Part shown: positions 25,491 to 46,692 of the stretch, in pieces
Layout: every line of letters starts with the position of its first letter
Numbering within the stretch: the stretch's first letter is position 1
IMG/VR virus record: IMGVR_UViG_3300022591_000004
Span: 31,669 to 95,668 of that record
Length of the DNA stretch: 64,000 nt
Reading direction: 5' to 3' (one strand)
Source of the DNA: a virus
The notes under the pieces: generated by a model
Seen by the model: only the letters and a program-made list of their open reading frames with translations
The model's database searches: none
What the model was told of the DNA's origin: nothing
Translations under genes and position numbers: made by a program

Positions 25491-25611
25491 TTTTCTTACC
25501 TACTTTCTTGGGCAACGTCTTGCCCTGAGGGGTTTCTTTCTGCCATTGTCGTGCCATCTTTGGGTGAGTAGCGTACATCCACCCTTTTTGCGCCTCTGAT
25601 TTAAAAGGCAT
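25459..25611 (-). CDS. Small basic protein, 50 aa
   Basis: MPFKSEAQKGWMYATHPKMARQWQKETPQGKTLPKKVG...; TAATG overlap with the upstream gene. Confidence 0.7.
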   Translation of the reverse strand: MPFKSEAQKGWMYATHPKMARQWQKETPQGKTLPKKVGKKNGRKEDRKKG

Positions 25612-29874: not shown

Positions 29875-29883
29875 GTGAACCCC

Positions 29884-30225
29884 TTAAGCGCTGATGTCGC
29901 CGTATAGTACCCAAGCATCTGTAGAGACTTGAATAAGCTCTGCTCGAGAGTATTGGGCGCGAGTTTTTAATCCAGGTGTTCCGTTGATAGTAACTCCAGA
30001 AGCACCAGCAAAAGTTACTTGTCCAGCACCGTACTGAATAACAGATACTTTGCTACCGACAGGGATTCCTGCCACAGAGTACAAGGGAACGGTAATAGTG
30101 TTTGAGCTGCTGCTCGTCGCCAAGATAACCTTAGAAGCATCTGTTGACGCTAAGGTGTATGAGGAAGATTGCGAGTTAATCGCGCTTGGTTGCCCGATGA
30201 GTCCGCTAACGTTGGAGACAGACAT
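29884..30225 (-). CDS. Fibre connector protein
   Basis: SYTLASTDA..ITVP..QYGAGQVTF..RAQYS..WVLYGD tail-fibre C-terminal type domain. Confidence 0.65.
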   Translation of the reverse strand: MSVSNVSGLIGQPSAINSQSSSYTLASTDASKVILATSSSSNTITVPLYSVAGIPVGSKVSVIQYGAGQVTFAGASGVTINGTPGLKTRAQYSRAELIQVSTDAWVLYGDISA

Positions 30226-30560
30226 TAAGAGAGCTCACTTCCAAAGGCGCTAAATGACATGGTTGCACTAGAGCCGTATACCTGAATTTTATCGCCAGAA
30301 GCTAGAGTCAAACCAAGAGTCAGAACTGTAGAGTCAGAACCAGCAACAGTTGCGCCGTAGATAATCCAGTGTTTAGCGGCAGTAGAGCTGTCTGCTGACG
30401 GACGGACGGCAATGCGGTAGGTAGCTGGGGTTGAAGCTTGGTTACAGATGGTGACTGTAGAAACAATCGCCTGAGCACCTGCGGTGTAAAGGGTGCCTTC
30501 TGTAGTTGCCCCAAGGGTAGCTGTTGCTACTTGACCCAAGACCTTATATGTGGTTGCCAT
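30225..30560 (-). CDS. Fibre adaptor protein (MATTYKVLGQ type)
   Basis: Small beta-sandwich, YKVLGQ..LYT..VSTVTICN..LTLGLTL..SFSAFGSE. Confidence 0.65.
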   Translation of the reverse strand: MATTYKVLGQVATATLGATTEGTLYTAGAQAIVSTVTICNQASTPATYRIAVRPSADSSTAAKHWIIYGATVAGSDSTVLTLGLTLASGDKIQVYGSSATMSFSAFGSELS

Positions 30561-32926: not shown

Positions 32927-34141
32927 TTAGTTAGACTGGACAATCTGCCAGCTAGTACCGTCAGAGATAAGCTTGCACCATTTACCTGCTGTTGCAGAGA
33001 GGATGGCCGTAGTTGCAGAGCCTCCAGCAAGTGGAACGACGTTACTAGATGCGCTAATTATTGCAGCGGCTGCAGTATTTCTAAAGTTTAGCTCTCGTCC
33101 AGAATAGCTTGATGCTGTCGGTAGTGTTACTGTACATGCAGCTGTAAAAGTAACTGTGTAGTCCGAGCCTAGTACAGTGTACGTTGATGTGGATACGGAT
33201 TTGTAGTTTACCCACAAAGAACCCCACATCTTTATGTATGTACCTGTTGCTGCAGCGTTTCCCGTGTTTGCTGCACTTCCAAGAGAAATTGTAGTAAGGT
33301 TTGCAGTTGCACTAGAACCAATATTAATTGTTTTACCCGAATTAGTTCTGGTGCCAATATTTATAGTCCCGTTAAAAGTGGTAGCGGTTGCAACGTTAAT
33401 GGTGGCAGGCAGAGTTTGTGCAATGGTGTATAAATTGGCTGTGCCACCTGCAGTTATGGCCTGCCAACTATCGCTATACGCACCATTAAACTGCGGGGCT
33501 GTGCCATACACTAAAGGGCCGCTTCCAGTTGAAGACTGTGAGTTAAAAGTAGTAATCCAAGAATTTTGCGTATTTTGTGAATTATCAATACACGTTGCTG
33601 TTATTAAAGACGCCAAAGCAGAGCTCGGTGGGTTTCCTGCTCCACCTTGAAACTGTGGGTTGGAGGTAAAGCCAGCAAGTTGCGTTGTTTGGTCTGATAA
33701 CAATACGTTGTATACGTTACCTGCGCTATTGTTCCAAAAAGTAAATGATTGACCTTTTTGCATAGTAGTTGCGTCAGGTAGGTAGTATGTTAAACCAGTT
33801 CCAGCCCCAGTTCCAGTTACTTCTTGCCAGTTTGTACTTGAACTAGTCAGTGTTACTGTTGAGATATTATCTGCGTTAGTTATGGTAACCGCCGTGGATG
33901 AGCCTCCACCACCACCGCTACCTGATGCACCTTGAACTCCTTGGATACCTTGAATTCCTTGAGTACCAGTTCCTGCTGGGCCTTGTGTGCCTGTGGCTCC
34001 TTGAGAGCCAGTAGTTCCTTGAGCACCAGTGGCAGTGCCAACAGATTGCCAGACAGTGCCTGTCCATACCCACGTACGACCACTGTAGGTATACGTGGTG
34101 ACGTTAGGGGTTAATCCTGTGGTTGGGAAGCTAATTGCCAT
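32927..34141 (-). CDS. Fibre protein with short collagen-like segment
   Basis: MAISFP..WVWTGTVW N-terminus, G-X-Q triplets, TVTLP..GREL..SDGTSW C-terminal domain. Confidence 0.75.
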   Translation of the reverse strand: MAISFPTTGLTPNVTTYTYSGRTWVWTGTVWQSVGTATGAQGTTGSQGATGTQGPAGTGTQGIQGIQGVQGASGSGGGGGSSTAVTITNADNISTVTLTSSSTNWQEVTGTGAGTGLTYYLPDATTMQKGQSFTFWNNSAGNVYNVLLSDQTTQLAGFTSNPQFQGGAGNPPSSALASLITATCIDNSQNTQNSWITTFNSQSSTGSGPLVYGTAPQFNGAYSDSWQAITAGGTANLYTIAQTLPATINVATATTFNGTINIGTRTNSGKTINIGSSATANLTTISLGSAANTGNAAATGTYIKMWGSLWVNYKSVSTSTYTVLGSDYTVTFTAACTVTLPTASSYSGRELNFRNTAAAAIISASSNVVPLAGGSATTAILSATAGKWCKLISDGTSWQIVQSN

Positions 34142-34221
34142 AGGTCTATTCTCTCACTATTCTTACTTTTGAGGTGCTATAGAAGGAAATAATAAGCGGC
34201 TTTAATTTCCTTATAGAGTAA

Positions 34222-34476
34222 CTACTGTTTTTCTGGAAGCTTGACGTGTGTTCGACCTGTTATAGCAGCAGCCTCATATGAGGAAAGGTCCTTACCTGAG
34301 CTTTTAACAAGGTCAGACTCTAGCATTTTTTCAAGTGTTAAAATGCTTTCTTTTAAGTTTACGTAAGCCACAGTATATGAAGCGCTTCTTGGAATCCAGT
34401 TGTTGATAGCCGTAACCAAGCTATCCATGTGAGAGAACGCTTTATCCACAGGCGTTGTGGGGGTTGAATCTGCCAT
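34222..34476 (-). CDS. Hypothetical protein
   Basis: 84 aa, SD GGAGG. Confidence 0.6.
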   Translation of the reverse strand: MADSTPTTPVDKAFSHMDSLVTAINNWIPRSASYTVAYVNLKESILTLEKMLESDLVKSSGKDLSSYEAAAITGRTHVKLPEKQ

Positions 34477-34983: not shown

Positions 34984-36014
34984 CTGACGAAACAGTGGTT
35001 CAAGACCTGTTAAAGTTATTGGACTACCTAGATAAAAGCCAGTGGACACATGTTCCTAGTTTTGAACTTATAAAAGGAATACCTGTCATAACCAGGGCAG
35101 AGCTTAGGAATAAACCTATGAAAAAGGGGATTGCTCGCACCACTACATCGGGCTCCACAGGGGAGCCAGTAACCGTAGAAAAGACTTACTCCGACTATAT
35201 TTGGCATTTGGCTACAAATATACGAGAGATTAGATGGCGTAAATGGGACGTTACCAAAACTCTAGCGTCTATAGCGCCGACCAACAAGCTCGGTGAGTTT
35301 AGCTCTTGGGGAATTCCAAAGGCTATAGAGGCTGAACAAGGTCCCTCTTACACTATAGGACTGGAGCCAATATCAGTTCTTCAAAAGTGGCTAGAAGAAA
35401 TTAGTCCTCATTACATTCATACACGTCCAAGTATTTTAAATGCTTTAGACCTAACCAAACTTTCTAATCTTACGGACACTAAGGGTACAGGTGAGCTTGG
35501 AGGGACTATGTACTCCAGTGAAGAGTTTGGCACAATAGCCATTCAATGTCCCGATAACCCTTCAGTTATGCACGTTATGGAGAACCTTATTGTCGAAACA
35601 GACAAAGATGGTGGGGCTATTATTACTAGCCTTACTAATCCCTATACAAAACGGTATAAACTAGGGGACCACGTTACTTTGGGTGAGTGCACATGTGGAC
35701 GAACTTTACAAACTATTACATCTATAAAAGGTCGAGTCCGTAATATGTTTGTAATGCCTAATGGGGATAAAAAATGGCCCCTTATAGGCTCTCTTGTTTA
35801 CTACGAACAGTTTGGAATTAAACAGTATAAGGCTGTGCAAACTTCTTTATATAATCTAGACTTGTATATTATCTGTAGTCCTTTAGGTGAACGGGAAGAA
35901 GAACTTAAAAAAACAGTCCAAGAATGGCTGGGAGTTAAAATAAATGTAGCTATCAAATACGTTGAGGCATTTGATAGCTACAAATTTGAAGAGTTTATTT
36001 CTTTTATAGAATAG
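34971..36014 (+). CDS. Phenylacetate-CoA ligase/CapK-like adenylate-forming enzyme
   Basis: IPVITRAEL, TTSGSTGEP, YSSEE.G.IA.QC, RYKLGD, CTCGR, IKGR. Confidence 0.85.
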   Translation: MEILADETVVQDLLKLLDYLDKSQWTHVPSFELIKGIPVITRAELRNKPMKKGIARTTTSGSTGEPVTVEKTYSDYIWHLATNIREIRWRKWDVTKTLASIAPTNKLGEFSSWGIPKAIEAEQGPSYTIGLEPISVLQKWLEEISPHYIHTRPSILNALDLTKLSNLTDTKGTGELGGTMYSSEEFGTIAIQCPDNPSVMHVMENLIVETDKDGGAIITSLTNPYTKRYKLGDHVTLGECTCGRTLQTITSIKGRVRNMFVMPNGDKKWPLIGSLVYYEQFGIKQYKAVQTSLYNLDLYIICSPLGEREEELKKTVQEWLGVKINVAIKYVEAFDSYKFEEFISFIE

Positions 36015-37260
36015 TTTGTATCATGCTAACATTTACTGCAGTTGTTCCCGCATCTGTCAAAACAATACTGAGGCTTCCATCAGTTCCTGTTGCTATAGTG
36101 TGATTTATTGTTCCACCTATTTCCACAACGCCAATTTCTGTATAACTACAGCTTGTTGCAACATCATTAGAAATAATTAAAAACTTCGAAATTCTTGAGT
36201 TTGAACCCTGCGACATTCTAACAGTTGTTTCAGTACCAGTGGATGCATATGAGCCTGCAATTTGAAAACTGTCTCCATCATTTGTATATGTTTGATAGAC
36301 GCCAGACACTAACTTACCGTTACTTAAATGAACTGTACCATTAACATACGCATCACCAGAATCGAACCTACTATTAGTAGAAAGGCCTCCGTTGACGTAT
36401 ACGGTGCCATTAATATTTAGATGTTGAGGTGCATCGATTCGCATTCCACCTTCACCTAAAAAGGTGATGTACTCCTGAGGATTAGTAGATGCTCCTGTTG
36501 GGTCAACGTTTCCAATATAAGACGCTACTGATGAGTTGATTCCAGCTCCGCCAATAAACTGTCCCAAAGGACCGCCATAACTAGAGGCGCTTAAAGGGCC
36601 TTGCCAATACGTATTAACAGGGGCAGTGATTCCACGACCAGGAAGACCAAGAAATGAACGAACAGGTATAGCTGTAGCCGTATAATCTCCTTCTGTAGGG
36701 TCGCCATACAAGTAGTGGTCAATCCATGTTTGAATATTTGTCCAGTCTAATCCCGTGCTATACATGCCTTCATACGTATCCCATCTAATAACTTGTGTAG
36801 GGTCATTAGGGTTAACAACGCTTGTCCAACCACTAGAGTCCCAGCTGTTATTTGGAAAGTACCCATAACCGCTGCCAAAAACTCCCATGCCGTAATTAGC
36901 ATACGTACCAACAGCAGTATCCCCACCAAGAGCGGCAAAAGCCTCCGCTAAATTAGGCAGTCTCCAGTCCGTGTACCCGTTCTGATTAAATGCTGCACAA
37001 TATGCCTGCGCATCGGCCCACGTATAGTTTCCTTGGGTACTGAGGACACTAACATCGGCATACATTTCAGAAAAAAGACTTGTAGCAGGGTCGTAGTAAA
37101 AAACAACTCCACCACCAGGACCCGTGTCGCTATAGTTGTAGGTCTTTAGTGCCGCAGAACCGATAGAGCCATCGGTGTTTACTTTTACAACTTGATTAGG
37201 GTTGGAAGAAATAGAACCAACCGAAAGCCCGTTCTTTACTTGAAAGTTTTTATCTGACAT
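36004..37260 (-). CDS. Fibre tip protein with DUF1566/Lcl C-type-lectin-like domain
   Basis: MSDKNFQVKNGL N-terminus; TGPGGG.VFY, TWADAQAYC..GYTDWRLP, PVRSF. Confidence 0.75.
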   Translation of the reverse strand: MSDKNFQVKNGLSVGSISSNPNQVVKVNTDGSIGSAALKTYNYSDTGPGGGVVFYYDPATSLFSEMYADVSVLSTQGNYTWADAQAYCAAFNQNGYTDWRLPNLAEAFAALGGDTAVGTYANYGMGVFGSGYGYFPNNSWDSSGWTSVVNPNDPTQVIRWDTYEGMYSTGLDWTNIQTWIDHYLYGDPTEGDYTATAIPVRSFLGLPGRGITAPVNTYWQGPLSASSYGGPLGQFIGGAGINSSVASYIGNVDPTGASTNPQEYITFLGEGGMRIDAPQHLNINGTVYVNGGLSTNSRFDSGDAYVNGTVHLSNGKLVSGVYQTYTNDGDSFQIAGSYASTGTETTVRMSQGSNSRISKFLIISNDVATSCSYTEIGVVEIGGTINHTIATGTDGSLSIVLTDAGTTAVNVSMIQTIL

Positions 37261-37295
37261 ATAAGTTCACTATCCCTTATGTAGTAGTTATTAGT

Positions 37296-40200
37296 TTATA
37301 AAGATACGCGCTGTACTTTTACAGTGGCGTTTGTATACGTTCCTGATTGAGCGATAGTCGCTGTAAGGGTCATATCAGAACCAGACACAACTGCCTCAAT
37401 AACTGGCTCACCAGTTCCCGCGCCTACTATGTTAATAATTCCATACTCAACATAGTTGACAGACGTTCCATCTGTCTGTACAAGCACCTCAGAGCTTCTA
37501 ATATCTGTACCATGTACGATAGAAACTACGTACTTAAGAGTAGTAAACGAGCTAAGAGCAACAGTGTCAATAACGGCTGTTGCAGAAGAGGTTACTGTAG
37601 TAGTAACTACGGTAGCTCCAGTAGCGCCCTGAGTTCCTTGAGCGCCTTGCGCTCCTTGAATACCTGCGGTGCCTTGGGTACCTATACCCGTAGTTCCTTG
37701 TAAACCCCGAGTTCCTTGAGCTCCAGTTGTACCAGTAGCTCCTTGCGCACCAGTTATGCCCTGAGCACCTGTAGAGCCAGTTGCGCCCTGAGCACCTGTT
37801 GTTCCTGTTGTTCCCTGAGCACCAGTTGAACCAATAGCTCCTTGTGTACCAGTTACTCCCTGAGCTCCAGTTGAACCTTGGGTACCAGTTGTGCCTTGTA
37901 AGCCTGTGGTTCCCTGTGCGCCAGTTGTGCCTTGGATACCTACCGCACCATCAAGGTTTACTGTCCAAGAAGCGTATGTTCCAGAGCCGACAATTCTGTC
38001 ATTAGTAAAGGTAAGAGAGCCTGTACCTGAGTTGTACGCACTAACAGTTCCGTAGACAAGGTTAGAGATAGTGTTAGCTACTACGATGTTTTGACCAACA
38101 GAGTAATTAAGTGCAGTACCTACTGTGATAGTAGTTGTACCAGTTCCTGTTAAAGTAAAGGATGTAGTAGATGAGGTAGCGTACTTATCGCTAGCAGTTC
38201 CTTGAATACCTTGCGTTCCTTGAGAACCTTGGGTACCATTTGAGCCGTTAGTACCTTGAGCACCAGTTGCTCCTTGAGCACCAGTGGTTCCCGTGGTTCC
38301 TTGCGTACCTGTTGAGCCTGTAGAACCCTGAGCTCCAGTAGTTCCTTGCGCACCTGTCGAACCCGTAGAACCCGTATAGCCTTGTGTACCAGTAGCGCCT
38401 TGAGTTCCTTGAGCACCCTGAAGCCCTGTTAAGTTATCGTACGGCTCAAACCACTCTGTACCGTCATAAATATATAGGCGACCATCCGTAGTGTTAAGCC
38501 AAGTAGTTCCTGTTGCAGGAGTAGCAGGAACTGTGGCAGAGACAATGTAGACACCTTGTGCGCCTTGAACGCCCTGGAGTCCTTGTGTTCCCTGGGTGCC
38601 TTGTGCACCTGTTGCACCAGTTGTGCCCTGAGAGCCTGTTGTACCTTGTGTTCCCTGCGCTCCAGTAGTTCCTTGAGAGCCAGTAGAACCAGTACTTCCT
38701 TGAGCACCTGTGTTTCCTGTGGTTCCTTGAGCACCTGTAAATCCTTGAGTACCTTGAGTACCTTGAGTACCTTGAGAACCAGTAGTTCCTTGTGCTCCTG
38801 TAGAGCCTTGGATACCTGTAGTTCCTTGGATACCTTGGGTTCCTTGGATACCTTGGTAATTAACTTGAGTGACGCGAACAAATGCTCCCGCTGATGCAGG
38901 AACTGGAGATGCTGCAGTCGCGTAGTTTAGGTACACGTTTGTGGAATCGGCGTTCCAATACACTTCGTAGTAATCGCCAGCAGTTGCGTTAACTTGCCAT
39001 ACCCAGTTAGTGATTGTTGGGGTAGTGCTAGATACTTCAGAGTCAAAAGCTGTAGATGCTGCAGTGGCGCCGTTTTTAACAAGCCAGAAGTTTGCTACGT
39101 GATTTCCTGCGCCAGTTAAAACGAGTTGACCAGCAAAATCAATCATGTATGTGCCAGTTACTGGCATTGTTACACGAGTAAGGGCAGAACCATTTGATAC
39201 TAGAGTTACACCGTTGTTAATATTGGTAGTGTCAAAAATAACTGCTGCTCCGCCAGTTGTGGCGGTTTGGTCTGCAGTTGAGTAGAAAGAGCCGTAGTTA
39301 GAGATGGCTCCACCAGCACCAGTGGCACCAGTTGCTCCTTGAACACCTACACCAGATGTTTGGGTAAAGACAATATTATCTGTTCCAATACGGATAGTTC
39401 CATCTGAGTTAGAACCGTTTCCAATTTCTAACCAAACGGTTTGTCCGTAAGATGTTCCATCAGTTACGAAGATGTAGTCGCCCTCTTCAACCTGACCAAC
39501 AACATGGTTGTCATAGTCAGTGGCTCGGGTAATCTTCCAAGGCCTACCACCAGGGTTGTTCTTACCAGTATCAGTTACTGTGTAGACACCATTTTGTTTT
39601 TGGTCAGCCTGACCAACAATAAGGAGGCGGTCACCAACAGCTAGATTTGGGGTTGTATATCCGTCTACAGAAAGAACCGCGTTAGCTCCAGCCTGAATGT
39701 AAGCCCCTACGCCCGTTCCGTTTTCGGCATCAGCAGAGCCTGCATAATATGTGCAAGAGTTATCAAGAGGCGTTGTTTGTACAGCCTCTACTGATTGGTG
39801 GGCATTCTGTGAAGATACAGGTCCAACAGCTCCCTGCACACCTTGAGTACCTTGAGTACCTTGAGTGCCCTGGGTTCCTTGCAGACCTTGTGTGCCCTGA
39901 ATACCCTGAGCACCAGTACTGCCCTGTGTGCCAACATAGCCTTGGGTACCCGTTGCTCCTTGAGAGCCAGTAGTTCCTTGCGTACCGTTAACACCTTGTG
40001 TGCCCTGAGAGCCTGTGTTTCCATTAGCTCCTTGCGCACCAGTATTTCCTTGAGTTCCTTGAAGTCCTTGAAGCCCTTGAGAACCAGTATAACCTTGAGT
40101 GCCAGTTAAACCCTGAACTCCTGTGTATCCCTGAGCACCCTGAGTTCCTTGGATACCTTGGGCACCAGTGGTTCCTTGAACAGTAGGAACATTGACATCA

Positions 40201-40541
40201 ATAGTATTTTGCGCTGAATGGTAAGTAAAGTTAATGTTTGTGTGGGTGCCGCTATTGAGGGCATCTGCAACTAATTCGGTGTGAAAGTACTTATTTGTAG
40301 CGCCTTCAAGAAGGTCATCTGTAGAGCCTAAAGCTGCGCCCGAAACAGCATTAGCAATCTCTGTAGCTAAATCTGTGGGTGTAACTGTCGCATAGTCAAG
40401 GTCTCGCCAAGAGTGAATTCCATCGCCAATTTTAAATTTGCCTGTGTTAGTCTCAAAACCAATTTCGCCTTGAGCAAGCTCTGGGTTACTATCGTGCCAA
40501 GTGGTGGAGATACCACGACGTACTTGAATCTTTGTTGCCAT
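37296..40541 (-). CDS. Long collagen-like fibre with Mtd_N-type N-terminal domain
   Basis: MATKIQVRRG..W...NPELAQGEIGFETNTGKFKIGDG; several G-X-Q/T collagen blocks separated by globular domains. Confidence 0.85.
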   Translation of the reverse strand: MATKIQVRRGISTTWHDSNPELAQGEIGFETNTGKFKIGDGIHSWRDLDYATVTPTDLATEIANAVSGAALGSTDDLLEGATNKYFHTELVADALNSGTHTNINFTYHSAQNTIDVNVPTVQGTTGAQGIQGTQGAQGYTGVQGLTGTQGYTGSQGLQGLQGTQGNTGAQGANGNTGSQGTQGVNGTQGTTGSQGATGTQGYVGTQGSTGAQGIQGTQGLQGTQGTQGTQGTQGVQGAVGPVSSQNAHQSVEAVQTTPLDNSCTYYAGSADAENGTGVGAYIQAGANAVLSVDGYTTPNLAVGDRLLIVGQADQKQNGVYTVTDTGKNNPGGRPWKITRATDYDNHVVGQVEEGDYIFVTDGTSYGQTVWLEIGNGSNSDGTIRIGTDNIVFTQTSGVGVQGATGATGAGGAISNYGSFYSTADQTATTGGAAVIFDTTNINNGVTLVSNGSALTRVTMPVTGTYMIDFAGQLVLTGAGNHVANFWLVKNGATAASTAFDSEVSSTTPTITNWVWQVNATAGDYYEVYWNADSTNVYLNYATAASPVPASAGAFVRVTQVNYQGIQGTQGIQGTTGIQGSTGAQGTTGSQGTQGTQGTQGFTGAQGTTGNTGAQGSTGSTGSQGTTGAQGTQGTTGSQGTTGATGAQGTQGTQGLQGVQGAQGVYIVSATVPATPATGTTWLNTTDGRLYIYDGTEWFEPYDNLTGLQGAQGTQGATGTQGYTGSTGSTGAQGTTGAQGSTGSTGTQGTTGTTGAQGATGAQGTNGSNGTQGSQGTQGIQGTASDKYATSSTTSFTLTGTGTTTITVGTALNYSVGQNIVVANTISNLVYGTVSAYNSGTGSLTFTNDRIVGSGTYASWTVNLDGAVGIQGTTGAQGTTGLQGTTGTQGSTGAQGVTGTQGAIGSTGAQGTTGTTGAQGATGSTGAQGITGAQGATGTTGAQGTRGLQGTTGIGTQGTAGIQGAQGAQGTQGATGATVVTTTVTSSATAVIDTVALSSFTTLKYVVSIVHGTDIRSSEVLVQTDGTSVNYVEYGIINIVGAGTGEPVIEAVVSGSDMTLTATIAQSGTYTNATVKVQRVSL

Positions 40542-40757
40542 TTAAGCATTTCCTCCATCAATTGGTTCAGTCCCACCAAAATTTGTGTCTACCATTCCAC
40601 CGTCCATGTTGCCCGTATTTAAGGCGCTCCATGCGCTGCCGTCGTATACGTAAACAGTGTTCTCAGTAGTATTGTAATACAGTTCGCCTGCAGATGTGCC
40701 CGTAGGGTCGCTCGCAGCCGCTAGGAGACCTAGCGGTACGAGGAAGCTACGGGCCAT
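40542..40757 (-). CDS. Small fibre adaptor, 71 aa
   Basis: MARSFLVP, GELYYNTT..VYVYDGSAW, two DGG motifs at the C-terminus. Confidence 0.7.
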   Translation of the reverse strand: MARSFLVPLGLLAAASDPTGTSAGELYYNTTENTVYVYDGSAWSALNTGNMDGGMVDTNFGGTEPIDGGNA

Positions 40758-40769
40758 CTACTTATATCC

Positions 40770-43040
40770 TTAAGCTATTACTACTACTCGGTAGGTATCT
40801 ACGAGTTGAGGTGCTACGGCAAAACCAACTGAAGCTGTAGTTGAGTTTACAGTAATATCGGTTTCAACCTTAGCTCCTGAAGCGTCGTAAACAGATATTT
40901 CAACATCTGCAGTTCCCAAATTGTGAGTGATTGGGAAGCTTGTTGTAGACGCGTTTCCAGTGATAGTTGTTGCGTACTTCTTGCCATCAACATAGCCACG
41001 GGTAGCAACTTCGTTACCTGCAGCAGCTGAGCCAACATACGCGTTACCGTCAGCGTTAAGAACTATGTCTCCGCCGTTCGAGGTAACGTTTACATCGCTC
41101 TGAGCAATAAGGTTCAACTTGTAGGCATTTGACTCTACAGTCATGTCACCTGTTGAGTTGTCTACCGAGATGTGGTTATTTGTTGAACCAGCACCACCAG
41201 CAGATTGGAAGGTAACATCACCTGTGAATGTTGGGGCAGCCTTAGGCGCCTTAGCATCCAACTGTGTCTGGATGTTAGAGGTCACACCATCAAGGTATGA
41301 AATCTCTGTCGAAGAAACAGTTACTGAGTTTACATACGTGAGTGTGTAACTCTGAGAAGGACTCTCATAATTTCCACCCGAAATGTTTGTTGCAGGTAAA
41401 GAAATGGTGTCTATAAAGTTGGTTGTAGGTGTACCATTTTTAGTAAAGGTAACTACGTGGCCATTATTGCCTGTGAACGTTAGTACTGTTCCGTTAGGAA
41501 TAGACGACAAAGTAGAAATGTCGTTTAGTGTCTTAGGGCCAGTTCCAAACTCAACAGTTCCTGAACCACTTGTGTAGAAGTAGGTTGAAGTAGAATCACT
41601 CCACCAATTGCTTCTGTCAACCGTTACGGTAGAACCAACTGTTACTGTTGGGTTATTGAAGGTAGGAGCATCACTAACGGAGATTGTATTTCCGCTAAAT
41701 GAGATGTTTGTACCTGCAGTGTATTCACCAGCAGCAGAGAACTGTGTCCATGTTCCAGCGGTTGCATCAGAAAGAATCCAACCTTGTGCGGCATGAGTTC
41801 CTTCTTCTACGAATACGAAGTCTCCCTTTGCAGGAGTTCCTTCGTCTGTTGCACGAGATAGGCTAACTCCGCCAGCAATATCAGATGCAACATAGATGCC
41901 GTTTTCAGAAGAGGTTGACTGGTCTTTAAGAAGAGCACGGTCTCCATCTGCAAGAGTGACCCCATCAAGAGTGAATACTCCTAACAGGTTAGATACGTTT
42001 GCAGAGGAAGCAACTCGTACAGAGTTCTTAACATTGAGCCCCTGAGCGACACCATCTACGTATGTCTTGGTAGCGATTACTGATGTATCAACAACGAGCT
42101 TAGTGGCGTCTGTGCCATCTGCAGTAAGTCCTGAACCGTAGTTAACAGCAAGACCAGTACCATCAGTTGTAAGGCCGAAGCCCTTGGCTACACCAAGCTG
42201 TGTTCCGTCTCCAGCTGATGTGGAAAGGGTTGAGTCTGGATTAACAACCAAGTTGTTGCTTGAAAGTCCAAGACCATTACCGTAGTTAAGGCTAAGGGCT
42301 CCTGAACCACCATCTACTGCTAGTGGACCATTAACAGAGAGGATTCCAGCGTTATAGCCTTGTGCACCCTGCATACCGTCGGCGCCTTGAGCACCGTCAT
42401 TACCATTGTAACCTTGAGCACCTTGTGCTCCGTCATTACCATTGTAACCTTGAGCACCTTGAACGCCTTGAAGCATAGCGTTGTTGATGTCAAGGATGGT
42501 TGCAATCTGGTTATCTGAAGATACTGAGCCAACGTATGCGTGGTCTCCTGAAGCAGGATTAAGAACAATGTTGTTAGAGGCTGTTACAGTGAAGTCACCA
42601 GAGCCGCCAACGTTTACTGTTGAATCGCCACTCTTGAAGAAACCATCAGTAGATAGCTGTGACTCTACGTTAGAGTAATTAAGGGTAAGGTTGCTTGAGC
42701 CATCGATAGTAAAGTCACTATTAACGCCAAGAATACCTGCGTTGTAACCTTGAGCACCCTGGGCACCATCGTTACCTGCTGCACCTTGGATACCCTGTGT
42801 TCCTTGGGAACCATCATTGCCGTTGGCGCCTTGGATACCCTGAGTACCTTGTGCTCCATCATTACCGATAGATGCGTTGAGCCAAGATGTTCCGTTCCAT
42901 GAACGAAGATAGCCAAGCGTTGTGTCAAAGTAAATCTGACCAATAGCTGGGCTAGATGGCGCGGAAGCCAGATTCTGGATTACCGCATTTTGCAGTTCGA
43001 GCTGCGTTAAATCAATTGGGGTTAAAAACTTACGTGCCAC
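40770..43040 (-). CDS. Fibre protein with collagen-like and beta-repeat segments
   Basis: MARKFLTP, GAQ repeats, ATKTYVD, ENGIYV, C-terminal THNLG domain. Confidence 0.8.
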   Translation of the reverse strand: MARKFLTPIDLTQLELQNAVIQNLASAPSSPAIGQIYFDTTLGYLRSWNGTSWLNASIGNDGAQGTQGIQGANGNDGSQGTQGIQGAAGNDGAQGAQGYNAGILGVNSDFTIDGSSNLTLNYSNVESQLSTDGFFKSGDSTVNVGGSGDFTVTASNNIVLNPASGDHAYVGSVSSDNQIATILDINNAMLQGVQGAQGYNGNDGAQGAQGYNGNDGAQGADGMQGAQGYNAGILSVNGPLAVDGGSGALSLNYGNGLGLSSNNLVVNPDSTLSTSAGDGTQLGVAKGFGLTTDGTGLAVNYGSGLTADGTDATKLVVDTSVIATKTYVDGVAQGLNVKNSVRVASSANVSNLLGVFTLDGVTLADGDRALLKDQSTSSENGIYVASDIAGGVSLSRATDEGTPAKGDFVFVEEGTHAAQGWILSDATAGTWTQFSAAGEYTAGTNISFSGNTISVSDAPTFNNPTVTVGSTVTVDRSNWWSDSTSTYFYTSGSGTVEFGTGPKTLNDISTLSSIPNGTVLTFTGNNGHVVTFTKNGTPTTNFIDTISLPATNISGGNYESPSQSYTLTYVNSVTVSSTEISYLDGVTSNIQTQLDAKAPKAAPTFTGDVTFQSAGGAGSTNNHISVDNSTGDMTVESNAYKLNLIAQSDVNVTSNGGDIVLNADGNAYVGSAAAGNEVATRGYVDGKKYATTITGNASTTSFPITHNLGTADVEISVYDASGAKVETDITVNSTTASVGFAVAPQLVDTYRVVVIA

Positions 43041-43053
43041 TCTGTTATCTCCT

Positions 43054-44022
43054 TTAAGATAGGTAAGCGTTGCCTGCGAATTGGTTTGAGAAGGTGAGAG
43101 TTAATGAGTCCAGAGTGGTGTACGAAATCTCTCCTTCGTAAATTGTACCGCCTGAATCACGAACTGTAACGTTAGGGTAGAACCCTAAGTTATGATTAAC
43201 GACCCAAGTACTAGCCGCCACCGACTGAGTGTGTACGTAAGACACTCGGGAAGTAGTGAAGTACTTGTTTACAGTTCCTTCAGGAAGGTCGTCTGTTGAT
43301 GCAAGGGAAATTCCAGCAATAGCATCAGCTAGTTGCTGGGCAGAAATACCCCCACCTTGTAGACCTTGAATACCTTGAGCACCTTGTGCGCCCTGAGTAC
43401 CCGTACCTGTCGTTCCCTGTAAACCTTGTGTTCCTTGGGTGCCATTTGCACCTTGGATGCCTTGTGCTCCTTGTGAGCCATTAGCTCCTTGAATACCTGC
43501 GGCTCCTTGCACACCTGTAGCGCCTTGAATTCCGCCAGCACCTTGAATACCCTGAGCTCCTACGGGACCAACTGCTCCCTGAATACCTTGAGTTCCGCCA
43601 GCACCTTGAACTCCTGCAGCACCCTGAATTCCTTGAGCGCCTTGTGCTCCCGAACCAGTAGCACCTTGAATGCCTTGAGCACCTGAGATGCTTCCTACGT
43701 TCTCCCAAGCGCTGCCATTCCATACATAAAGCAAACCAGATACTAAGTAAGCATCCCCAGAGTTTCCTGTAGGATGTGCGGCAACAAGTTCAGCTTGAGA
43801 TGAGTACGAACCAAGAATAGAAACAGATTTTCCTGCAATACCTTGTGCACCCTGAATACCAGTACCTGTTGCGCCCTGTATGCCTTGTGCACCCTGCATA
43901 CCTTGTGCGCCTTGTACACCGCGTGCGCCACCCTGTCCTACAACAACAACATTAGGTCCCTGTGGATTAACATTTTGGATGCCGCAGGTGTGACGCGTGC
44001 CCACGCAACGACATCTAGTCAA
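43054..44022 (-). CDS. Collagen-like fibre protein
   Basis: G-X-Q repeats, STDDLPEG..NKYF, C-terminal NHNLG domain. Confidence 0.8.
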   Translation of the reverse strand: MTRCRCVGTRHTCGIQNVNPQGPNVVVVGQGGARGVQGAQGMQGAQGIQGATGTGIQGAQGIAGKSVSILGSYSSQAELVAAHPTGNSGDAYLVSGLLYVWNGSAWENVGSISGAQGIQGATGSGAQGAQGIQGAAGVQGAGGTQGIQGAVGPVGAQGIQGAGGIQGATGVQGAAGIQGANGSQGAQGIQGANGTQGTQGLQGTTGTGTQGAQGAQGIQGLQGGGISAQQLADAIAGISLASTDDLPEGTVNKYFTTSRVSYVHTQSVAASTWVVNHNLGFYPNVTVRDSGGTIYEGEISYTTLDSLTLTFSNQFAGNAYLS

Positions 44023-45085
44023 GGGTCACCTGCTGAGTGGTGAAGACCTGCCCACGAAGATAGGTGTTTTCATAGCTACTGTCGTCTGTGGCTGTTGCCT
44101 GCAGGTCCCAAAATGCGCGAGGAGGAATGTAGGCCGTAGAGCTACGGTCTAGTGACAAACGAAGTTTGCTTAGGCTTTCAGATGTAGAGATAACTTCAAT
44201 ATTAAATGAGGCGTACAAAGAAGGGGCATTGGGATATGTGCGAATTTGCGCTTTCCAAGTAAGGCCCGTGATATCAAACGGAAAGTCTATTTCTTCTGCA
44301 TAAGAGTCACCTTGGTACAAAACAATATCTTGAATCTCTACATAGCTTGGGAAAGGTTCTCGTCCCATAAGGTCATTCTGAATATATACGCGTTCTGGGG
44401 CACGAGAATCGTCAATTTCTTGAGCCATGTACACAGGAACAAGCTTGTTGGTAGTACGAGAAACGCGTCGAAGCGTTCCCATCTCCGTACGCCATAAACC
44501 AATATTAAGCTGAGCACATAGCTGGTGGTACTGGTCCCATCGGTTTTGGATAGTCTCAGTTAGCTGGCGGTACCGTTCAGAGCGCGGAATACTTACGCCA
44601 TCTGGTGCAGCGATATCAATATCAAAAGAGGCGTCTGTAGCAAGTGCCCATAGAGCCTCAATAGTTGCAAGAATAGCAATTGGGTATTCCTCGACAGGAG
44701 GAATAAGTCCGATAGTCATTTGACTACCTAAACCATTTGTTCGTTGATACGTGTGCTGAGTAACAGCGGTATTAACAAAAGTGCATATATCGTCATCTGT
44801 AAAGTAACGAAAAACATTTCCTGTAATAACAACAGAAGAGTTTGCTGGGGGAGCGGTAATAAAGTGAATGACACCGACGTCAGGTTCTGCGGTGTAGCCT
44901 GTCGGGTAGGCTACTGGGGACCCATTAACGGATACTACTAAGGTATTCAGGTCAATAGGGTGAATAGCTAAAGGGTAGTCTTTAGTAGACCCATCTCCCG
45001 TAAAGCTAAGAGCAAACTGTTTTGGCTGGTCACCTAGCTCTAAGCGTACGCGTGAGGTCAAATCGTACAAGTTTGCCACGTACAC
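44015..45085 (-). CDS. Head-tail adaptor with additional Ig-like domains
   Basis: RVRLELGD..YFTDDDI adaptor motif; C-terminal LYQGDS..DITG..WKAQIR (BppU-like) domain. Confidence 0.7.
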   Translation of the reverse strand: MYVANLYDLTSRVRLELGDQPKQFALSFTGDGSTKDYPLAIHPIDLNTLVVSVNGSPVAYPTGYTAEPDVGVIHFITAPPANSSVVITGNVFRYFTDDDICTFVNTAVTQHTYQRTNGLGSQMTIGLIPPVEEYPIAILATIEALWALATDASFDIDIAAPDGVSIPRSERYRQLTETIQNRWDQYHQLCAQLNIGLWRTEMGTLRRVSRTTNKLVPVYMAQEIDDSRAPERVYIQNDLMGREPFPSYVEIQDIVLYQGDSYAEEIDFPFDITGLTWKAQIRTYPNAPSLYASFNIEVISTSESLSKLRLSLDRSSTAYIPPRAFWDLQATATDDSSYENTYLRGQVFTTQQVTLD

Positions 45086-45621: not shown

Positions 45622-46692
45622 TTAATTGGTCTCCGCAATGACTACGGCCTGGTCTGTGATTAGGCCAAGTCCGAAGATTGAGTACCAAGCAAGTGCGTGC
45701 TCACGACCGAAGTCCAAGATACCGCCATCGCGGAGCTCGACTGGAAGTGAGATTGCGTGACCGAATGCGTTATCTCCAATGAAGATAGCTGAGTAGCGGT
45801 CAGATGAACCATTACCTGTGTAGGTAGCTGGAGTTGTGTAGCCTCCACCAGGAGTTACTGTTGGGTTAGCAACAGCTGTATCAGTGGTGTAGCTAGTACC
45901 TGCGCCACCAGCAACCTTGAGAACCTGTGTGGTCTCAATGAATACTGTGTCGTACAAGCGGCCGATTTCACCGAGCATGAAGTTACCTGGAGCTGCGTAC
46001 TTGGTGACTTCGATGAACTCAGGATTGTCACGGAGCTTGCGGCTCTGGTGTGGGTGAACGAAGGCAACGTAGGTCTCGCCCAACCGAGGGATGTTCTTGG
46101 TTGAGAGTGTCTCAACTGCATCCTTAACAGTGTGGGTGGTGAGGTTGAAGTTACCTGTCATAGAAGCACGTGAGGTGCCCTTTGTACCGTCTGCGTACCA
46201 GTTGTTGACAGCTGACAAACCAGAACGGTCTTCACCGTAGATGGTTGAGGTAGCTGCGTAGAGGGTATCGCGTGAAAGCTGGTCAAGATAGACAGCCATG
46301 TTGCGACCCAAGAGACGTGAAGCAGAGGCCATAACATCATCGAATGATGCGTTGAGCAAGAGCTCAGACACTGCAAGTGCGTAGCCGTGTTCAGCAACAG
46401 TGATTGAGAACTGTTGTGCGGTCAACGCGTTGGTCTGCATGCGGACACCTTCGACAAGCGGTGAAGCGAAGCCGAGGTTGTTGTAACGCATGAAGTTGAT
46501 TTGAAGACCAGGAGCAACACCGAGTTCAGTCTTCTTGACTGCGAACTGCTCGAAGCGAAGGATAGGCATAGCCTGGAACAAGATTTCCTTGGACCAGATT
46601 GTCTGAATCGCTTGAGTCAGCTGGGTGTTGGTACCTGAGTATGCTGTAGGTGCTGCGGCAAGATTGCCTGTACCTGTAATACTTGATGCCAT
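45622..46692 (-). CDS. Major capsid protein (HK97 fold, N4 gp56-like)
   Basis: WSKEIL..A.P.LRFEQFA, HPHQ..LR, GEIGRL..FIET, DFGRE..AWY; follows the scaffold; strong codon bias. Confidence 0.92.
   Translation of the reverse strand: MASSITGTGNLAAAPTAYSGTNTQLTQAIQTIWSKEILFQAMPILRFEQFAVKKTELGVAPGLQINFMRYNNLGFASPLVEGVRMQTNALTAQQFSITVAEHGYALAVSELLLNASFDDVMASASRLLGRNMAVYLDQLSRDTLYAATSTIYGEDRSGLSAVNNWYADGTKGTSRASMTGNFNLTTHTVKDAVETLSTKNIPRLGETYVAFVHPHQSRKLRDNPEFIEVTKYAAPGNFMLGEIGRLYDTVFIETTQVLKVAGGAGTSYTTDTAVANPTVTPGGGYTTPATYTGNGSSDRYSAIFIGDNAFGHAISLPVELRDGGILDFGREHALAWYSIFGLGLITDQAVVIAETN

What the first reader, a model, noticed from the sequence alone, without database searches (positions are those of the whole stretch)
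36004..45085. Daisy-chain fibre system: each gene's C-terminal domain matches the next gene's N-terminal peptide
Seen, in gene order: adaptor with an extra Ig-like domain -> collagen A ending in an HNLG domain -> fibre B starting MARKFLTP and ending in a second HNLG domain -> 71 aa protein starting MARSFLVP and ending DGG -> collagen C starting with Mtd_N and ending in a KY..SEVL..EYG domain -> lectin protein starting MSDKNFQVKNGL and ending in a degenerate copy of that domain. The HNLG -> MARxFLxP pairing occurs twice independently. Collagen C also has an internal P..G..WLNT.DGRLYIY.G..W knot that could take the MAISFP fibre (32927) as a side branch. Inference: a plug-and-socket code assembles a very long, branched head/neck appendage ending in a C-type-lectin tip and allows cassette swapping. 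I know of no description of this as a system.
Basis: partly seen in the sequence, partly recalled or inferred. Interest (0 to 1): 0.78.

Follow-up and report, generated by a model that had tools for sequence, protein, structure and literature searches.

The report
Modular collagen fibre chain on phage neck
A complete 96-kb phage genome encodes six consecutive proteins, starting with the head-to-tail adaptor, whose conserved ends probably let them join into one long collagen-rich fibre. The core three-part cassette recurs in phages of many bacterial phyla but has not been described as a system.

Summary
The sequence observations hold. Genes 44015-36004 (minus strand) encode six proteins:
- an adaptor with a T5-p132/LtfC-like Ig domain
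- a collagen protein ending in an "HNLG" beta-sandwich (C1)
- a 756-aa fibre with a conserved N-terminal "plug" and a second HNLG domain (C2)
- a 71-aa plug-only protein with a DGG tail
- a 1081-aa Mtd_N collagen
- an Lcl_C-like tip protein

Gene order is invariant in 80 related viral contigs. The termini stay conserved under purifying selection while the middles vary from 420 to 1097 aa.

The rule "a C1-ending gene is followed by a plug-starting gene" also holds in unrelated phages (Streptococcus T12, Rhodobacter, Dinoroseobacter, Microcystis, Mycobacterium, Thermus, Erwinia). It holds too in MAG contigs labelled with more than 12 bacterial lineages: 20 of 24 next genes against 1.5% of background ORFs.

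Serial "daisy-chain" assembly is therefore plausible, but no physical contact is shown. Three points weaken the strict plug-and-socket reading:
- HNLG is a very common, often tandemly repeated Ig-like module (19,724 cluster representatives, no Pfam family). It is not a dedicated socket.
- Short cassette members are already labelled capsid or head decoration proteins (PDB 9nx3, phrog_2647).
- The proposed side branch has no support.

First-stage readers of this scan noted similar blocks on other genomes.

Verdict: a new variant of a known kind, namely multi-protein fibres joined by conserved docking ends.

The parts
44015..45085 (-). 356-aa head-to-tail adaptor-like protein with a C-terminal fibre-anchor Ig domain (whole gene)
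   Evidence: Residues 1-232 are 40% identical to Streptomyces phage LuckySocke gp82. AF2 pLDDT is 73.5. The N-domain resembles the KHP30 tail protein 7wmp_m (Z 10.5), the T5 portal complex 9ilp_a (Z 9.5) and the DT57C neck 8hqo_P (Z 9.6).
44018..44356 (-). C-terminal Ig-like domain of the adaptor (aa 244-356), T5 p132 / LtfC-like
   Evidence: Structural matches: T5 7qg9_L Z 11.9, DT57C 8hqz_T Z 11.8, Douge 8zdo_a Z 11.2. Sequence matches: phrog_1084 E 3.8e-13; Pfam LtfC E 0.0087, below cut-off. The domain is absent from LuckySocke gp82, whose phage also lacks the cassette.
43054..44022 (-). Collagen A (322 aa): Cys/His-rich N-terminus, 42 G-X-Y triplets, hairpin module, TDDL motif, C1 HNLG domain
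   Evidence: Pfam Collagen E 8e-15; triplet count. The TTG start overlaps the adaptor stop by 8 nt. Homologues of 104-406 aa keep only the two ends.
43057..43239 (-). C1 HNLG beta-sandwich domain (aa 262-322)
   Evidence: Alignment A2. phrog_30556 E 3e-19. pN 0.12 against pS 0.45 across loci.
40770..43040 (-). Fibre B (756 aa): N-plug, two collagen runs, decoration-protein-like core, ~195-aa insertion, C2 HNLG domain
   Evidence: phrog_2647 'head decoration' E 1.5e-21 over aa 323-476 and phrog_8309 over aa 4-57. In the AF2 model the core and C2 are confident and the rest is poor.
42870..43040 (-). N-plug of fibre B (aa 1-57, MARKFLTP...)
   Evidence: 414 relatives in IMG/VR; the best 80 kept are 69-86% identical. 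pN 0.11 against pS 0.63. 56% identical to the N-terminus of Streptococcus phage T12 gp62.
40773..40982 (-). C2 HNLG domain of fibre B (aa 687-756)
   Evidence: Alignment A2. The A2 profile hits the C-terminus of PDB 9nx3_A 'Capsid decoration protein' at E 2e-9. AF2 pLDDT is about 90.
40542..40757 (-). 71-aa plug-only protein (MARSFLVP...) with a DGG tail; its stop codon abuts the collagen C start codon
   Evidence: Matches the fibre B N-terminus at E 6e-7. Sequence read. Homologues of 53-165 aa always precede an Mtd_N gene.
37296..40541 (-). Collagen C (1081 aa): Mtd_N, TDDL motif, 142 G-X-Y triplets in six runs, internal hairpin, C3 domain
   Evidence: Pfam Collagen E 5e-58. Mtd_N E 5.5e-12. 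Triplet count.
38442..38546 (-). Internal hairpin 'knot' of collagen C (aa 666-700)
   Evidence: Matches aa 12-43 of the 71-aa protein at E 7e-5. The same motif occurs in collagen A at aa 92-106. No evidence that it docks another protein.
37299..37640 (-). C3 domain of collagen C (aa 968-1081)
   Evidence: Found again only in locus L028, where the next gene also starts MSDKNF.VKNGL.
36004..37260 (-). 418-aa tip protein: conserved 12-residue N-peptide, Lcl_C-like domain (aa 75-171), C-terminal domain weakly like C3
   Evidence: Pfam Lcl_C E 1.4e-7, 32.2 bits, below the 34.9 cut-off. Atlas leads point to Lcl_C clusters. C-terminus against C3: E 3e-4.

Best explanation
The block encodes one multi-protein, collagen-rich fibre system mounted on the head-to-tail adaptor, that is, at the neck of a contractile-tailed phage.

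Proposed assembly order:
- The adaptor carries an extra Ig-like domain of the T5 p132/LtfC kind, whose solved relatives anchor lateral fibres.
- The Cys/His-rich N-terminus of collagen A would dock on that domain.
- The HNLG domain at the end of collagen A (C1) would hold the conserved N-terminal plug of fibre B.
- The HNLG domain at the end of fibre B (C2) would hold the plug-only 71-aa protein.
- The DGG tail of the 71-aa protein would hold the Mtd_N domain of collagen C.
- Collagen C would carry the Lcl_C-like tip protein.

Shown here:
- domain identities
- invariant gene order
- conserved termini with freely exchanged middles
- purifying selection on the termini
- recurrence of the core cassette (Ig dock -> C1 protein -> plug...C2 protein) across phages of many phyla
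- several presence/absence co-variations

Inferred, not shown:
- that the proteins touch each other
- that the contacts run from the C-terminus of one to the N-terminus of the next
- the proximal-to-distal polarity
- the neck location

I put about 0.65 on these products forming one connected assembly, about 0.5 on the first two junctions being as drawn, and about 0.3 on all five being as drawn.
For: - Adaptor fold and p132-like Ig domain. In T5, p132 is a structural Ig protein onto which the fibre pb1 is grafted; the map density attributed to it could be about 50 N-terminal residues (PMC10038345).
- The BRock-group relative LuckySocke has the adaptor homologue without the Ig domain and has no cassette.
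- Order adaptor -> C1 -> plug..C2 -> plug -> Mtd_N holds in 80 loci. The middles range from 104-406 aa, 420-1097 aa and 53-674 aa.
- Purifying selection: N-plug pS 0.63 and pN 0.11; C1 pS 0.45 and pN 0.12. The conservation is therefore protein-level, not a DNA recombination linker.
- Independent lineages show the same adjacency: T12 gp61->gp62, RcMrWorf gp9-gp12, R5C gp038-041, Mvi-JY20 83-85, Phrappuccino gp69-70, YS40 (two junctions in a row) and Yoloswag gp88-85. So do 14 or more MAG loci from more than 12 lineage labels.
- Statistics: p 2e-9 and p 4e-29.
- The Ig dock is a stand-alone gene just upstream of the C1 gene in Mvi-JY20 (phrog_1084 E 3e-22) and, weakly, in RcZahn (E 6e-4). In T12 gp61 a neck-protein-like domain (phrog_19519, not phrog_1084) is fused to C1.
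- Co-variation: the one fibre-B homologue without C2 (L053) has no plug or Mtd_N gene after it. A DGG-type tail precedes an Mtd_N gene in 20 of 21 distinct cases, and occurs in 0 of 6 plug proteins not followed by an Mtd_N gene. This includes an unrelated 285-aa collagen in L024.
- Mtd itself is a separate trimer mounted on the ends of fibres (PMC2408619).
Against: - No interaction was tested.
- HNLG occurs in 19,724 cluster representatives, often in 2-11 tandem copies with nothing else. That fits a generic Ig-like decoration or adhesion module better than a dedicated socket.
- Short plug..C2 proteins are called capsid/head decoration (PDB 9nx3; phrog_2647). The capsid, not the neck, may be the usual site, and C2 might be the virion-binding end.
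- All cassettes are homologous, so conserved adjacency can be inherited rather than independently selected.
- In T12, Mvi-JY20 and Phrappuccino nothing plug-like follows C2.
- Structural matches of C2 are unspecific (Z 6-8).
- The only apparent C1-plug fusion (P0046) has the geometry of a stop codon read as Gln.
Confidence: 0.55

Rival explanations
1. Parallel, not serial. The proteins are separate fibres or decoration proteins that each bind the virion (capsid, neck or each other's shafts) on their own. They share N- and C-terminal modules only through common descent and recombination. The HNLG domains are distal Ig-like adhesion modules.
For: - HNLG is a hugely common repeat module that occurs in arrays.
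- Short members are labelled capsid/head decoration.
- Ig-like domains on phages are usually decoration domains (statement in PMC10038345).
- The C2 fold matches are generic.
Against: - A 71-aa plug-only protein, or a 104-aa protein that is little more than a C1 domain, makes little sense as an independent fibre.
- Only one docking domain is visible on the virion core.
- Strict order and presence/absence co-variation of neighbouring ends.
- A receptor-binding distal tip would be expected to vary, yet C1 and C2 are the conserved parts.
Confidence: 0.25
2. Connected assembly with other geometry. The products do form one complex, but either with reversed polarity (an HNLG domain binds the virion and the N-termini point outward) or through C1-C2 pairing of the two paralogous HNLG domains, rather than C-terminus-to-N-terminus joints.
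For: - C1 and C2 are paralogues.
- The HNLG/C2 fold resembles small beta-sandwiches in neck and portal-tail complexes (9efk_AE, 8ck1_B, 8hqo_R). The same chains match aa 18-92 of the adaptor.
- In Hoc-like decoration proteins the C-terminal domain binds the capsid (my own knowledge).
Against: - The first gene product is fused to the adaptor and the last carries the lectin-like domain, which fits proximal-to-distal gene order.
- The T5 fibre N-terminus binds p132.
- Mtd sits at fibre ends.
- T4 long tail fibre genes follow assembly order (PMC5537660 abstract).
Confidence: 0.12
3. The small proteins (the C1 protein in its 104-aa form, and the 71-aa protein) are assembly chaperones for the neighbouring collagen fibres and are not in the virion.
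For: Small genes next to fibre genes are often chaperones (general knowledge: T4 gp38/gp57A, lambda Tfa). Collagen triple helices need registration.
Against: - In this window the C1 protein itself has 42 collagen triplets and is clearly structural.
- The small proteins share their domains with the fibres.
- Known fibre chaperone genes usually lie downstream of their client.
Confidence: 0.08

Closest known systems
Bacteriophage T4 long tail fibre (gp34-gp35-gp36-gp37)
   Same: Several proteins encoded by consecutive genes join end to end into one long fibre, with proximal to distal following gene order (PMC5537660 abstract).
   Different: No sequence relation. The T4 fibre sits on the baseplate and has no collagen. 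Here the anchor is the head-to-tail adaptor, the segments are collagen-like, and the joints are small beta-sandwich and plug modules. Assembly here is inferred only.
T5 / DT57C collar (p132 / LtfC) anchoring L-shaped tail fibres
   Same: The adaptor's extra domain has the p132 fold (Z 11.9). p132 is a structural Ig protein that anchors the fibre, with unmodelled density attributed to roughly 50 N-terminal residues of pb1 (PMC10038345).
   Different: In T5 p132 is a free 140-aa protein forming a dodecameric collar at the tail tip. Here the domain is fused to the adaptor at the neck, and it is a stand-alone gene in Microcystis phage Mvi-JY20. The Pfam LtfC match is below threshold.
Branched receptor-binding protein systems of Klebsiella phages (KP32, K11, KP34) and CBA120 tailspikes
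   Same: A primary fibre carries a branching domain, and a secondary protein docks through a short conserved N-terminal peptide. The modules can be swapped (PMC6872550, PMC13352976).
   Different: The domains differ: the Klebsiella systems use a T4gp10-like branching domain, which is not seen here. Those systems sit on the tail and are branched rather than chained. The interaction there is validated by experiment, whereas here it is not.
RcGTA head spike (Rcc01079 base + Rcc01080 fibre)
   Same: Products of two adjacent genes. The N-terminal nine residues of the fibre plug into the base protein, and the rest is flexible (PMC7296036).
   Different: The base is a pentameric jelly roll on capsid pentons, and the plug is an Ile/Leu-Gly repeat. 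No sequence similarity to C1 or to the N-plug was seen.
Capsid/head decoration proteins of the phrog_2647 / PDB 9nx3 type (e.g. Mycobacterium phage Phrappuccino gp70, Cali gp110)
   Same: Homologous. The fibre B core (aa 323-476) and C2 match this family. In Phrappuccino the gene also follows a gene ending in a C1-like domain.
   Different: Those are about 240-260-aa single-module proteins. Fibre B adds a conserved Mtd_N-like N-plug, two collagen runs and a 195-aa insertion, and it is followed by further chain members. No paper for 9nx3 was found.
Bordetella phage BPP-1 Mtd
   Same: Collagen C starts with the Pfam Mtd_N domain. Mtd is a separate trimer mounted on the ends of tail fibres (PMC2408619).
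   Different: Mtd continues into a C-type lectin variable domain diversified by a retroelement. Collagen C continues into collagen repeats, and no retroelement was examined.

Membership tests
Head-to-tail adaptor (portal-binding neck protein) | Fold shared with solved adaptor/neck proteins | tested here: met
   Model aa 3-197 against KHP30 7wmp_m: Z 10.5, 105 residues aligned. Against DEV head-to-tail 9bgm_B: Z 7.5. Model aa 22-92 against T5 portal complex 9ilp_a: Z 9.5, rmsd 1.5. Moderate scores.
Head-to-tail adaptor (portal-binding neck protein) | Gene position between capsid genes and neck/tail completion genes | tested here: met
   Order is portal, scaffold, MCP, 125-aa protein, then this gene. 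It is homologous to LuckySocke gp82, which lies between the MCP and the sheath.
Head-to-tail adaptor (portal-binding neck protein) | Dodecameric ring bound under the portal | not testable with these tools
   Needs a virion structure.
T5 p132 / LtfC collar Ig domain | p132-type Ig fold | tested here: met
   7qg9_L Z 11.9 (109 residues aligned, rmsd 3.3) and 8hqz_T Z 11.8, well above generic Ig hits at Z 7-8. Foldseek E 6e-8.
T5 p132 / LtfC collar Ig domain | Sequence membership (Pfam PF23926) | tested here: inconclusive
   E 0.0087, 17.1 bits against a cut-off of 27. phrog_1084 E 3.8e-13. A phrog_1084 member (Mvi-JY20 gene 83) also hits phrog_3304 'L-shaped tail fiber protein assembly'.
T5 p132 / LtfC collar Ig domain | Binds the N-terminus of a fibre protein | not testable with these tools
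   Inferred from gene neighbourhood only.
Collagen triple-helix repeat (PF01391) | Long uninterrupted G-X-Y runs above the Pfam threshold | tested here: met
   54.8, 48.8 and 193.1 bits against a cut-off of 27.2. Runs of up to 40 triplets.
Mtd_N (PF18454) | Score above the gathering threshold at the N-terminus | tested here: met
   Collagen C aa 5-41: 45.9 bits against 26.3. The 71-aa protein is only sub-threshold (17.7 bits).
Lcl_C / C-type-lectin-like domain (PF07603) | Score above the gathering threshold | tested here: not met
   32.2 bits against 34.9. Atlas leads agree with Lcl_C but score below 0.9. No PDB sequence hit. It is likely a divergent member but is not filed as one.
phrog_2647 / PDB 9nx3 capsid decoration protein family | Sequence homology of the core and the C-terminal domain | tested here: met
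   Fibre B aa 323-476 against phrog_2647: E 1.5e-21. HNLG profile against 9nx3_A residues 182-241: E 2e-9. Phrappuccino gp70 links the two over its full length, E 9e-20.
phrog_2647 / PDB 9nx3 capsid decoration protein family | Location on the capsid surface | not testable with these tools
   Only the depositor's molecule name is available. 9nx3 is not in the fold library and no paper was found.
Serially assembled multi-protein fibre (T4 long-tail-fibre type) | Consecutive genes whose products are end-to-end neighbours | tested here: inconclusive
   Order, conservation and co-variation fit. No contact data.
Branched RBP system with T4gp10-like branching domain | T4gp10-like domain in the primary RBP | not tested
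   No such Pfam or PHROG hit appeared, but no dedicated search was made. The resemblance is functional only.

The most novel reading that the evidence does not exclude
The C1-type HNLG domain plus the conserved N-terminal plug (M-A-R/K-x-F/L...D/N-L..N.L.N) form a pan-phage 'universal joint'. This would be an ancient, mobile plug-and-socket pair that phages of Actinobacteria, Firmicutes, Proteobacteria, Cyanobacteria, Deinococcota and others use to hang exchangeable fibre segments on the neck or capsid. Paralogous copies (C2 -> second plug, DGG tail -> Mtd_N) would allow true daisy-chaining. The HNLG domain itself would be a major uncatalogued phage domain family.
Probability: 0.35. Interest if true: 0.8.

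Novelty: new variant of a known kind. Interest (0 to 1): 0.6.

Why it matters
If the junction rule reflects real contacts, three things follow.
- It gives a simple, sequence-readable grammar for how many uncultured phages build long surface fibres. That would help annotate thousands of 'hypothetical' structural genes.
- It points to a very common phage domain that has no Pfam entry.
- It offers natural, portable connectors for mounting new binding modules on laboratory phages.

It also raises a question: are 'head decoration' proteins of this family really capsid-bound, or are they carried on a small collagen stalk? Several cultured phages carry the minimal cassette, so the idea can be tested directly.

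Tried and rejected
- DNA-level recombination linker as the reason for conserved termini: rejected. Synonymous sites are near saturation (pS 0.63) while pN is 0.11.
- RcGTA head spike GhsA/GhsB as homologues of the cassette: no sequence relation seen. Kept only as an analogue.
- Rosetta-stone fusion: the one candidate (P0046) joins C1 to the plug through 'QECI'. That is exactly stop + 9 nt + ATG read through, as in L171.
- Frameshift fusion of the adaptor to collagen A: the frames differ by +1, there is no slippery context, and there is an SD-like AGGTGA before the TTG start. Treated as coupled separate genes.
- Fold search for the fibre B C-terminal half: Foldseek found nothing below 1e-3. VIA gave only generic beta-sandwich matches for C2. 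The core domain (aa 20-125 of the model) was barely tested.
- PDB sequence searches returned no hits for the adaptor and the tip protein, only a weak, non-significant match for the collagen A tail, and only collagen low-complexity hits for fibre B.
It was repeated with C1 only.
- The search for a 9nx3 paper failed.
- Side-branch idea (MAISFP fibre on the collagen C knot): no test was possible with 7-kb flanks. The knot is the same hairpin module as in the N-plugs and in collagen A, so a trimer registration role is at least as likely.
- A pseudo-multimer fold made by reading through the stops between fibre B and the 71-aa gene was considered and not run. The tool reports no inter-domain error, so no interface could have been judged.

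Full report
WHAT THE WINDOW IS

The window is part of a complete 95,668-bp virus record with direct terminal repeats. Its structural genes lie on the minus strand. The major capsid protein (45622-46692) is 72-74% identical to that of the Streptomyces phages LuckySocke, Alone3 and BRock, which are contractile-tailed.

The 356-aa protein at 44015-45085 is homologous over residues 1-232 to LuckySocke gp82. The protein at 25611-26228 is homologous to gp83. The roughly 18 kb between them is therefore an island inserted between two neighbouring neck-region genes. The finding covers the first 9 kb of that island.

CHECK OF THE OBSERVATION

All six genes are at the stated coordinates.

- **Adaptor.** It folds into an N-domain resembling solved neck or head-to-tail proteins: KHP30 7wmp_m Z 10.5, T5 portal complex 9ilp_a Z 9.5, DT57C neck 8hqo_P Z 9.6. 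A disordered linker follows, then a C-terminal beta-sandwich. The best matches of that sandwich are the T5 collar protein chain 7qg9_L (Z 11.9), DT57C 8hqz_T (Z 11.8) and a Douge baseplate protein (Z 11.2), clearly above generic Ig hits. Pfam LtfC is a sub-threshold match. phrog_1084 matches at E 3.8e-13.
- **Collagen.** Collagen A, fibre B and collagen C carry 42, 27 and 142 G-X-Y triplets and pass Pfam Collagen.
- **HNLG tails.** The two tails look weak in pairwise BLAST (E 0.035). With relatives added they align over about 65 residues with an invariant His.
- **Plugs.** Fibre B and the 71-aa protein share their N-terminus (E 6e-7).
- **Collagen C** starts with Mtd_N (45.9 bits).
- **Tip protein.** It has only a sub-threshold Lcl_C match, and its C-terminus is weakly like that of collagen C (E 3e-4).
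- **Hairpin motif.** A short motif (G.xY.NT...xY.YdG..W) recurs in the plugs, in collagen A and inside collagen C.

THE SAME BLOCK IN RELATED VIRAL CONTIGS

The 60-residue N-terminus of fibre B has 414 relatives in IMG/VR, and the best 80 kept are 69-86% identical. Those 80 loci show the following.

- The order is always: 125-aa protein, adaptor (both domains), C1 protein, plug..C2 fibre, plug protein, Mtd_N collagen.
- The C1 gene lies directly upstream of the plug gene at 3-29 nt in 76 loci. In three more it lies upstream of an inserted HNH endonuclease. The remaining locus has no upstream sequence.
- Only the ends are kept. C1 proteins range from 104 to 406 aa and fibre B homologues from 420 to 1097 aa. 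Some fibre B homologues have the decoration-like core and some lack it. Plug proteins range from 53 to 674 aa.
- Nei-Gojobori estimates show selection on the protein. For the N-plug, pS is 0.63 and pN 0.11. For C1, 0.45 and 0.12. For C2, 0.64 and 0.23.

Neighbouring ends also co-vary.

- The one fibre B homologue that ends in a ..LLFGGM tail instead of C2 has no plug or Mtd_N gene after it (L053).
- A DGG-type tail precedes an Mtd_N gene in 20 of 21 distinct cases. One of these is an unrelated 285-aa collagen in L024. The tail is absent from all six plug proteins that are not followed by an Mtd_N gene.
- The C3 domain of collagen C recurs only in L028, and there the next gene starts with the same twelve residues as the tip protein.
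- The closest relative (L072) has another collagen C tail and another next gene.
- N-termini of C1 proteins fall into a Cys/His-rich class and an MSQYVRPG class. These track two variants of the adaptor's last residues.

THE CORE CASSETTE IN UNRELATED PHAGES

tblastn against cultured phages found the C1 domain and the plug side by side in very different viruses:

| Phage | Arrangement |
|---|---|
| Streptococcus phage T12 | gp61 (neck-protein-like domain + C1) -> gp62 (plug..coiled coil..C2), located after the endolysin |
| Rhodobacter phages RcMrWorf and RcZahn; Dinoroseobacter phage R5C | small Ig-like protein -> C1 protein -> plug..C2 -> a further fibre. In R5C this sits right after the portal gene |
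| Microcystis phage Mvi-JY20 | gene 83 (phrog_1084, E 3e-22, also phrog_3304 'L-shaped tail fiber protein assembly') -> gene 84 (C1) -> gene 85 (..C2) |
| Mycobacterium phage Phrappuccino | gp69 -> gp70 ('head decoration'), just upstream of the sheath gene |
| Thermus phage YS40 | C1 -> plug..C2 -> plug.., two junctions in a row |
| Erwinia jumbo phage Yoloswag | gp88-gp85 |

A scan of prokaryotic genome bins with the C1 alignment alone gave 19 loci labelled with more than 12 different lineages.

- In 14 or more of 17 informative loci, the C1-ending gene is followed within 1-39 nt by a gene starting with the plug motif and ending in C2. The C1 gene often has a short G-P-P collagen stretch.
- In at least seven loci the third gene again starts with a plug-like or hairpin N-terminus.
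- A crude HMM-based test gives p 2e-9.
- A regex written after seeing the data gives 20 of 24 next genes against 15 of 1017 background ORFs, p 4e-29.
- Two C1 subtypes (..GKAYLS and ..G.ARLI) go with two plug subtypes. This is co-variation, but it is equally expected from co-inheritance.
- Fifty further viral loci show the same two separate genes, 6-36 nt apart.

WHAT TEMPERS THE PLUG-AND-SOCKET READING

- A profile of the HNLG domain finds 19,724 cluster representatives at E <= 0.001 and 5,377 at E <= 1e-10. The best hits carry 2-11 tandem copies. One 670-aa protein is nine copies and nothing else. There is no Pfam family for the domain, and Atlas neighbours are unnamed viral proteins. It is therefore a generic, repeatable Ig-like module.
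- The same profile hits the C-terminus of PDB 9nx3_A, 'Capsid decoration protein' (E 2e-9). Phrappuccino gp70 aligns to that chain over its full length (E 9e-20). The fibre B core matches phrog_2647 'head decoration'. The short form of the second cassette gene is thus already labelled a decoration protein, though I found no paper for it.
- Fold matches of C2 are unspecific (Z 6-8), to small beta-sandwiches of neck, tail and tailspike-assembly proteins.
- In T12, Mvi-JY20 and Phrappuccino nothing plug-like follows C2.
- The only apparent C1-plug fusion is probably a read-through call.
- All cassettes are homologous, so the adjacency is one conserved module seen many times, not many independent inventions.

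MOST LIKELY MECHANISM

My preferred reading is a neck-mounted, multi-segment, trimeric collagen fibre.

- The adaptor ring displays p132-like Ig domains. In T5 this fold is a structural anchor onto which the fibre pb1 is grafted, apparently through its N-terminal ~50 residues (PMC10038345).
- Collagen A docks there through its Cys/His-rich N-terminus.
- Each following product docks through its conserved N-terminal module on the conserved C-terminal module of the previous one.
- The 71-aa protein acts as a plug-only adaptor that converts a C2 end into a site for an Mtd_N protein. Loci in which a long fibre carries the plug directly lack the Mtd_N gene.
- Mtd itself is a separate trimer mounted on fibre ends (PMC2408619).
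- The Lcl_C-like protein would be the distal binding tip.

Shown: anatomy, conservation, order, distribution and co-variation. Inferred: every contact, the polarity and the location.

Rivals are parallel independent decoration fibres, a connected complex with other geometry, and chaperone roles for the small proteins.

COMPARISON WITH WHAT IS KNOWN

The principle is established in several systems:
- the T4 long tail fibre (PMC5537660)
- Klebsiella branched receptor-binding proteins, with a branching domain and a conserved docking peptide (PMC6872550, PMC13352976)
- the RcGTA head spike, in which nine N-terminal residues of the fibre plug into the product of the adjacent gene (PMC7296036)
- the T5 collar

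What is new here:
- the particular module set
- its fusion to the head-to-tail adaptor
- the collagen segments
- the breadth of the minimal cassette
- the size of the unnamed HNLG family

First-stage notes of this scan on other genomes (e1-6076583, e1-6088667) describe similar blocks. They are unchecked and agree with what I see.

LIMITS

- No multimer prediction was available.
- 9nx3 is absent from the fold library.
- The second AF2 model is poor outside the core and C2.
- The regex test is post hoc.

Noticed in passing
window 43981-44022 (-), and loci L002-L081: Collagen A-type proteins begin with a four-ligand Cys/His cluster: CxC..HxC here, and CxxC....CxC or CxC...CxC in relatives. This suggests a small metal-binding knuckle at the end that would meet the adaptor. 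A second class starts MSQYVRPG and has no Cys. The two classes track two variants of the adaptor C-terminus.
   Followed up: partly
loci L013, L019, L039, L046, L053, L062, L068 etc.: Many terminal collagen fibres in related contigs end in a hydrophobic ..DPT.T.LL[YF]GGM stop motif (variants ..FMLGGM..FAMIG). It marks the last fibre of a chain. It is absent from this window's collagen C, which instead has the C3 domain plus a tip gene.
   Followed up: no
loci L014, L019, L068: An HNH endonuclease gene is inserted exactly between the C1 gene and the plug gene. Adjacency itself is therefore not required.
   Followed up: partly
protein library: The HNLG domain has 19,724 cluster representatives at E <= 1e-3 and arrays of up to 11 copies, yet no Pfam family. 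It looks like a large uncatalogued phage Ig-like domain family.
   Followed up: partly
L082 8415-10656 (Streptococcus phage T12 gp61-gp64): In T12-like prophages the C1 / plug..C2 pair sits after the endolysin and just before the convergent speA gene, far from the tail genes. This is an odd place for virion fibre genes.
   Followed up: no
window 40983-41612 (-): Fibre B has a ~195-aa insertion between the decoration-like core and C2 that most relatives lack. AF2 confidence there is below 50.
   Followed up: no
P0046; L171: A database protein reads as a C1 protein fused to a plug fibre through 'QECI'. This is the exact geometry of stop + 9 nt + ATG. It is either a real read-through or fusion, or a contig called with a stop-to-Gln code.
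   Followed up: partly
window 28120-30560 and 32927-34476; L018, L025, L053, L055: Other fibres of the island, and of related contigs, are each preceded by a ~104-120-aa protein starting MA.T.K.L... (here 30225-30560). In L018 the gene directly after such a protein starts MAISQFP.., like the window's MAISFP fibre. This is possibly a second adaptor-plus-fibre pairing.
   Followed up: no
window 43240-43341 and 40266-40367 (-): A shared 'STDDL.EG..NKYF' motif follows the collagen in collagen A and follows Mtd_N in collagen C (53% identical over 34 aa, E 7e-7). In relatives it follows either N-terminal module.
   Followed up: no
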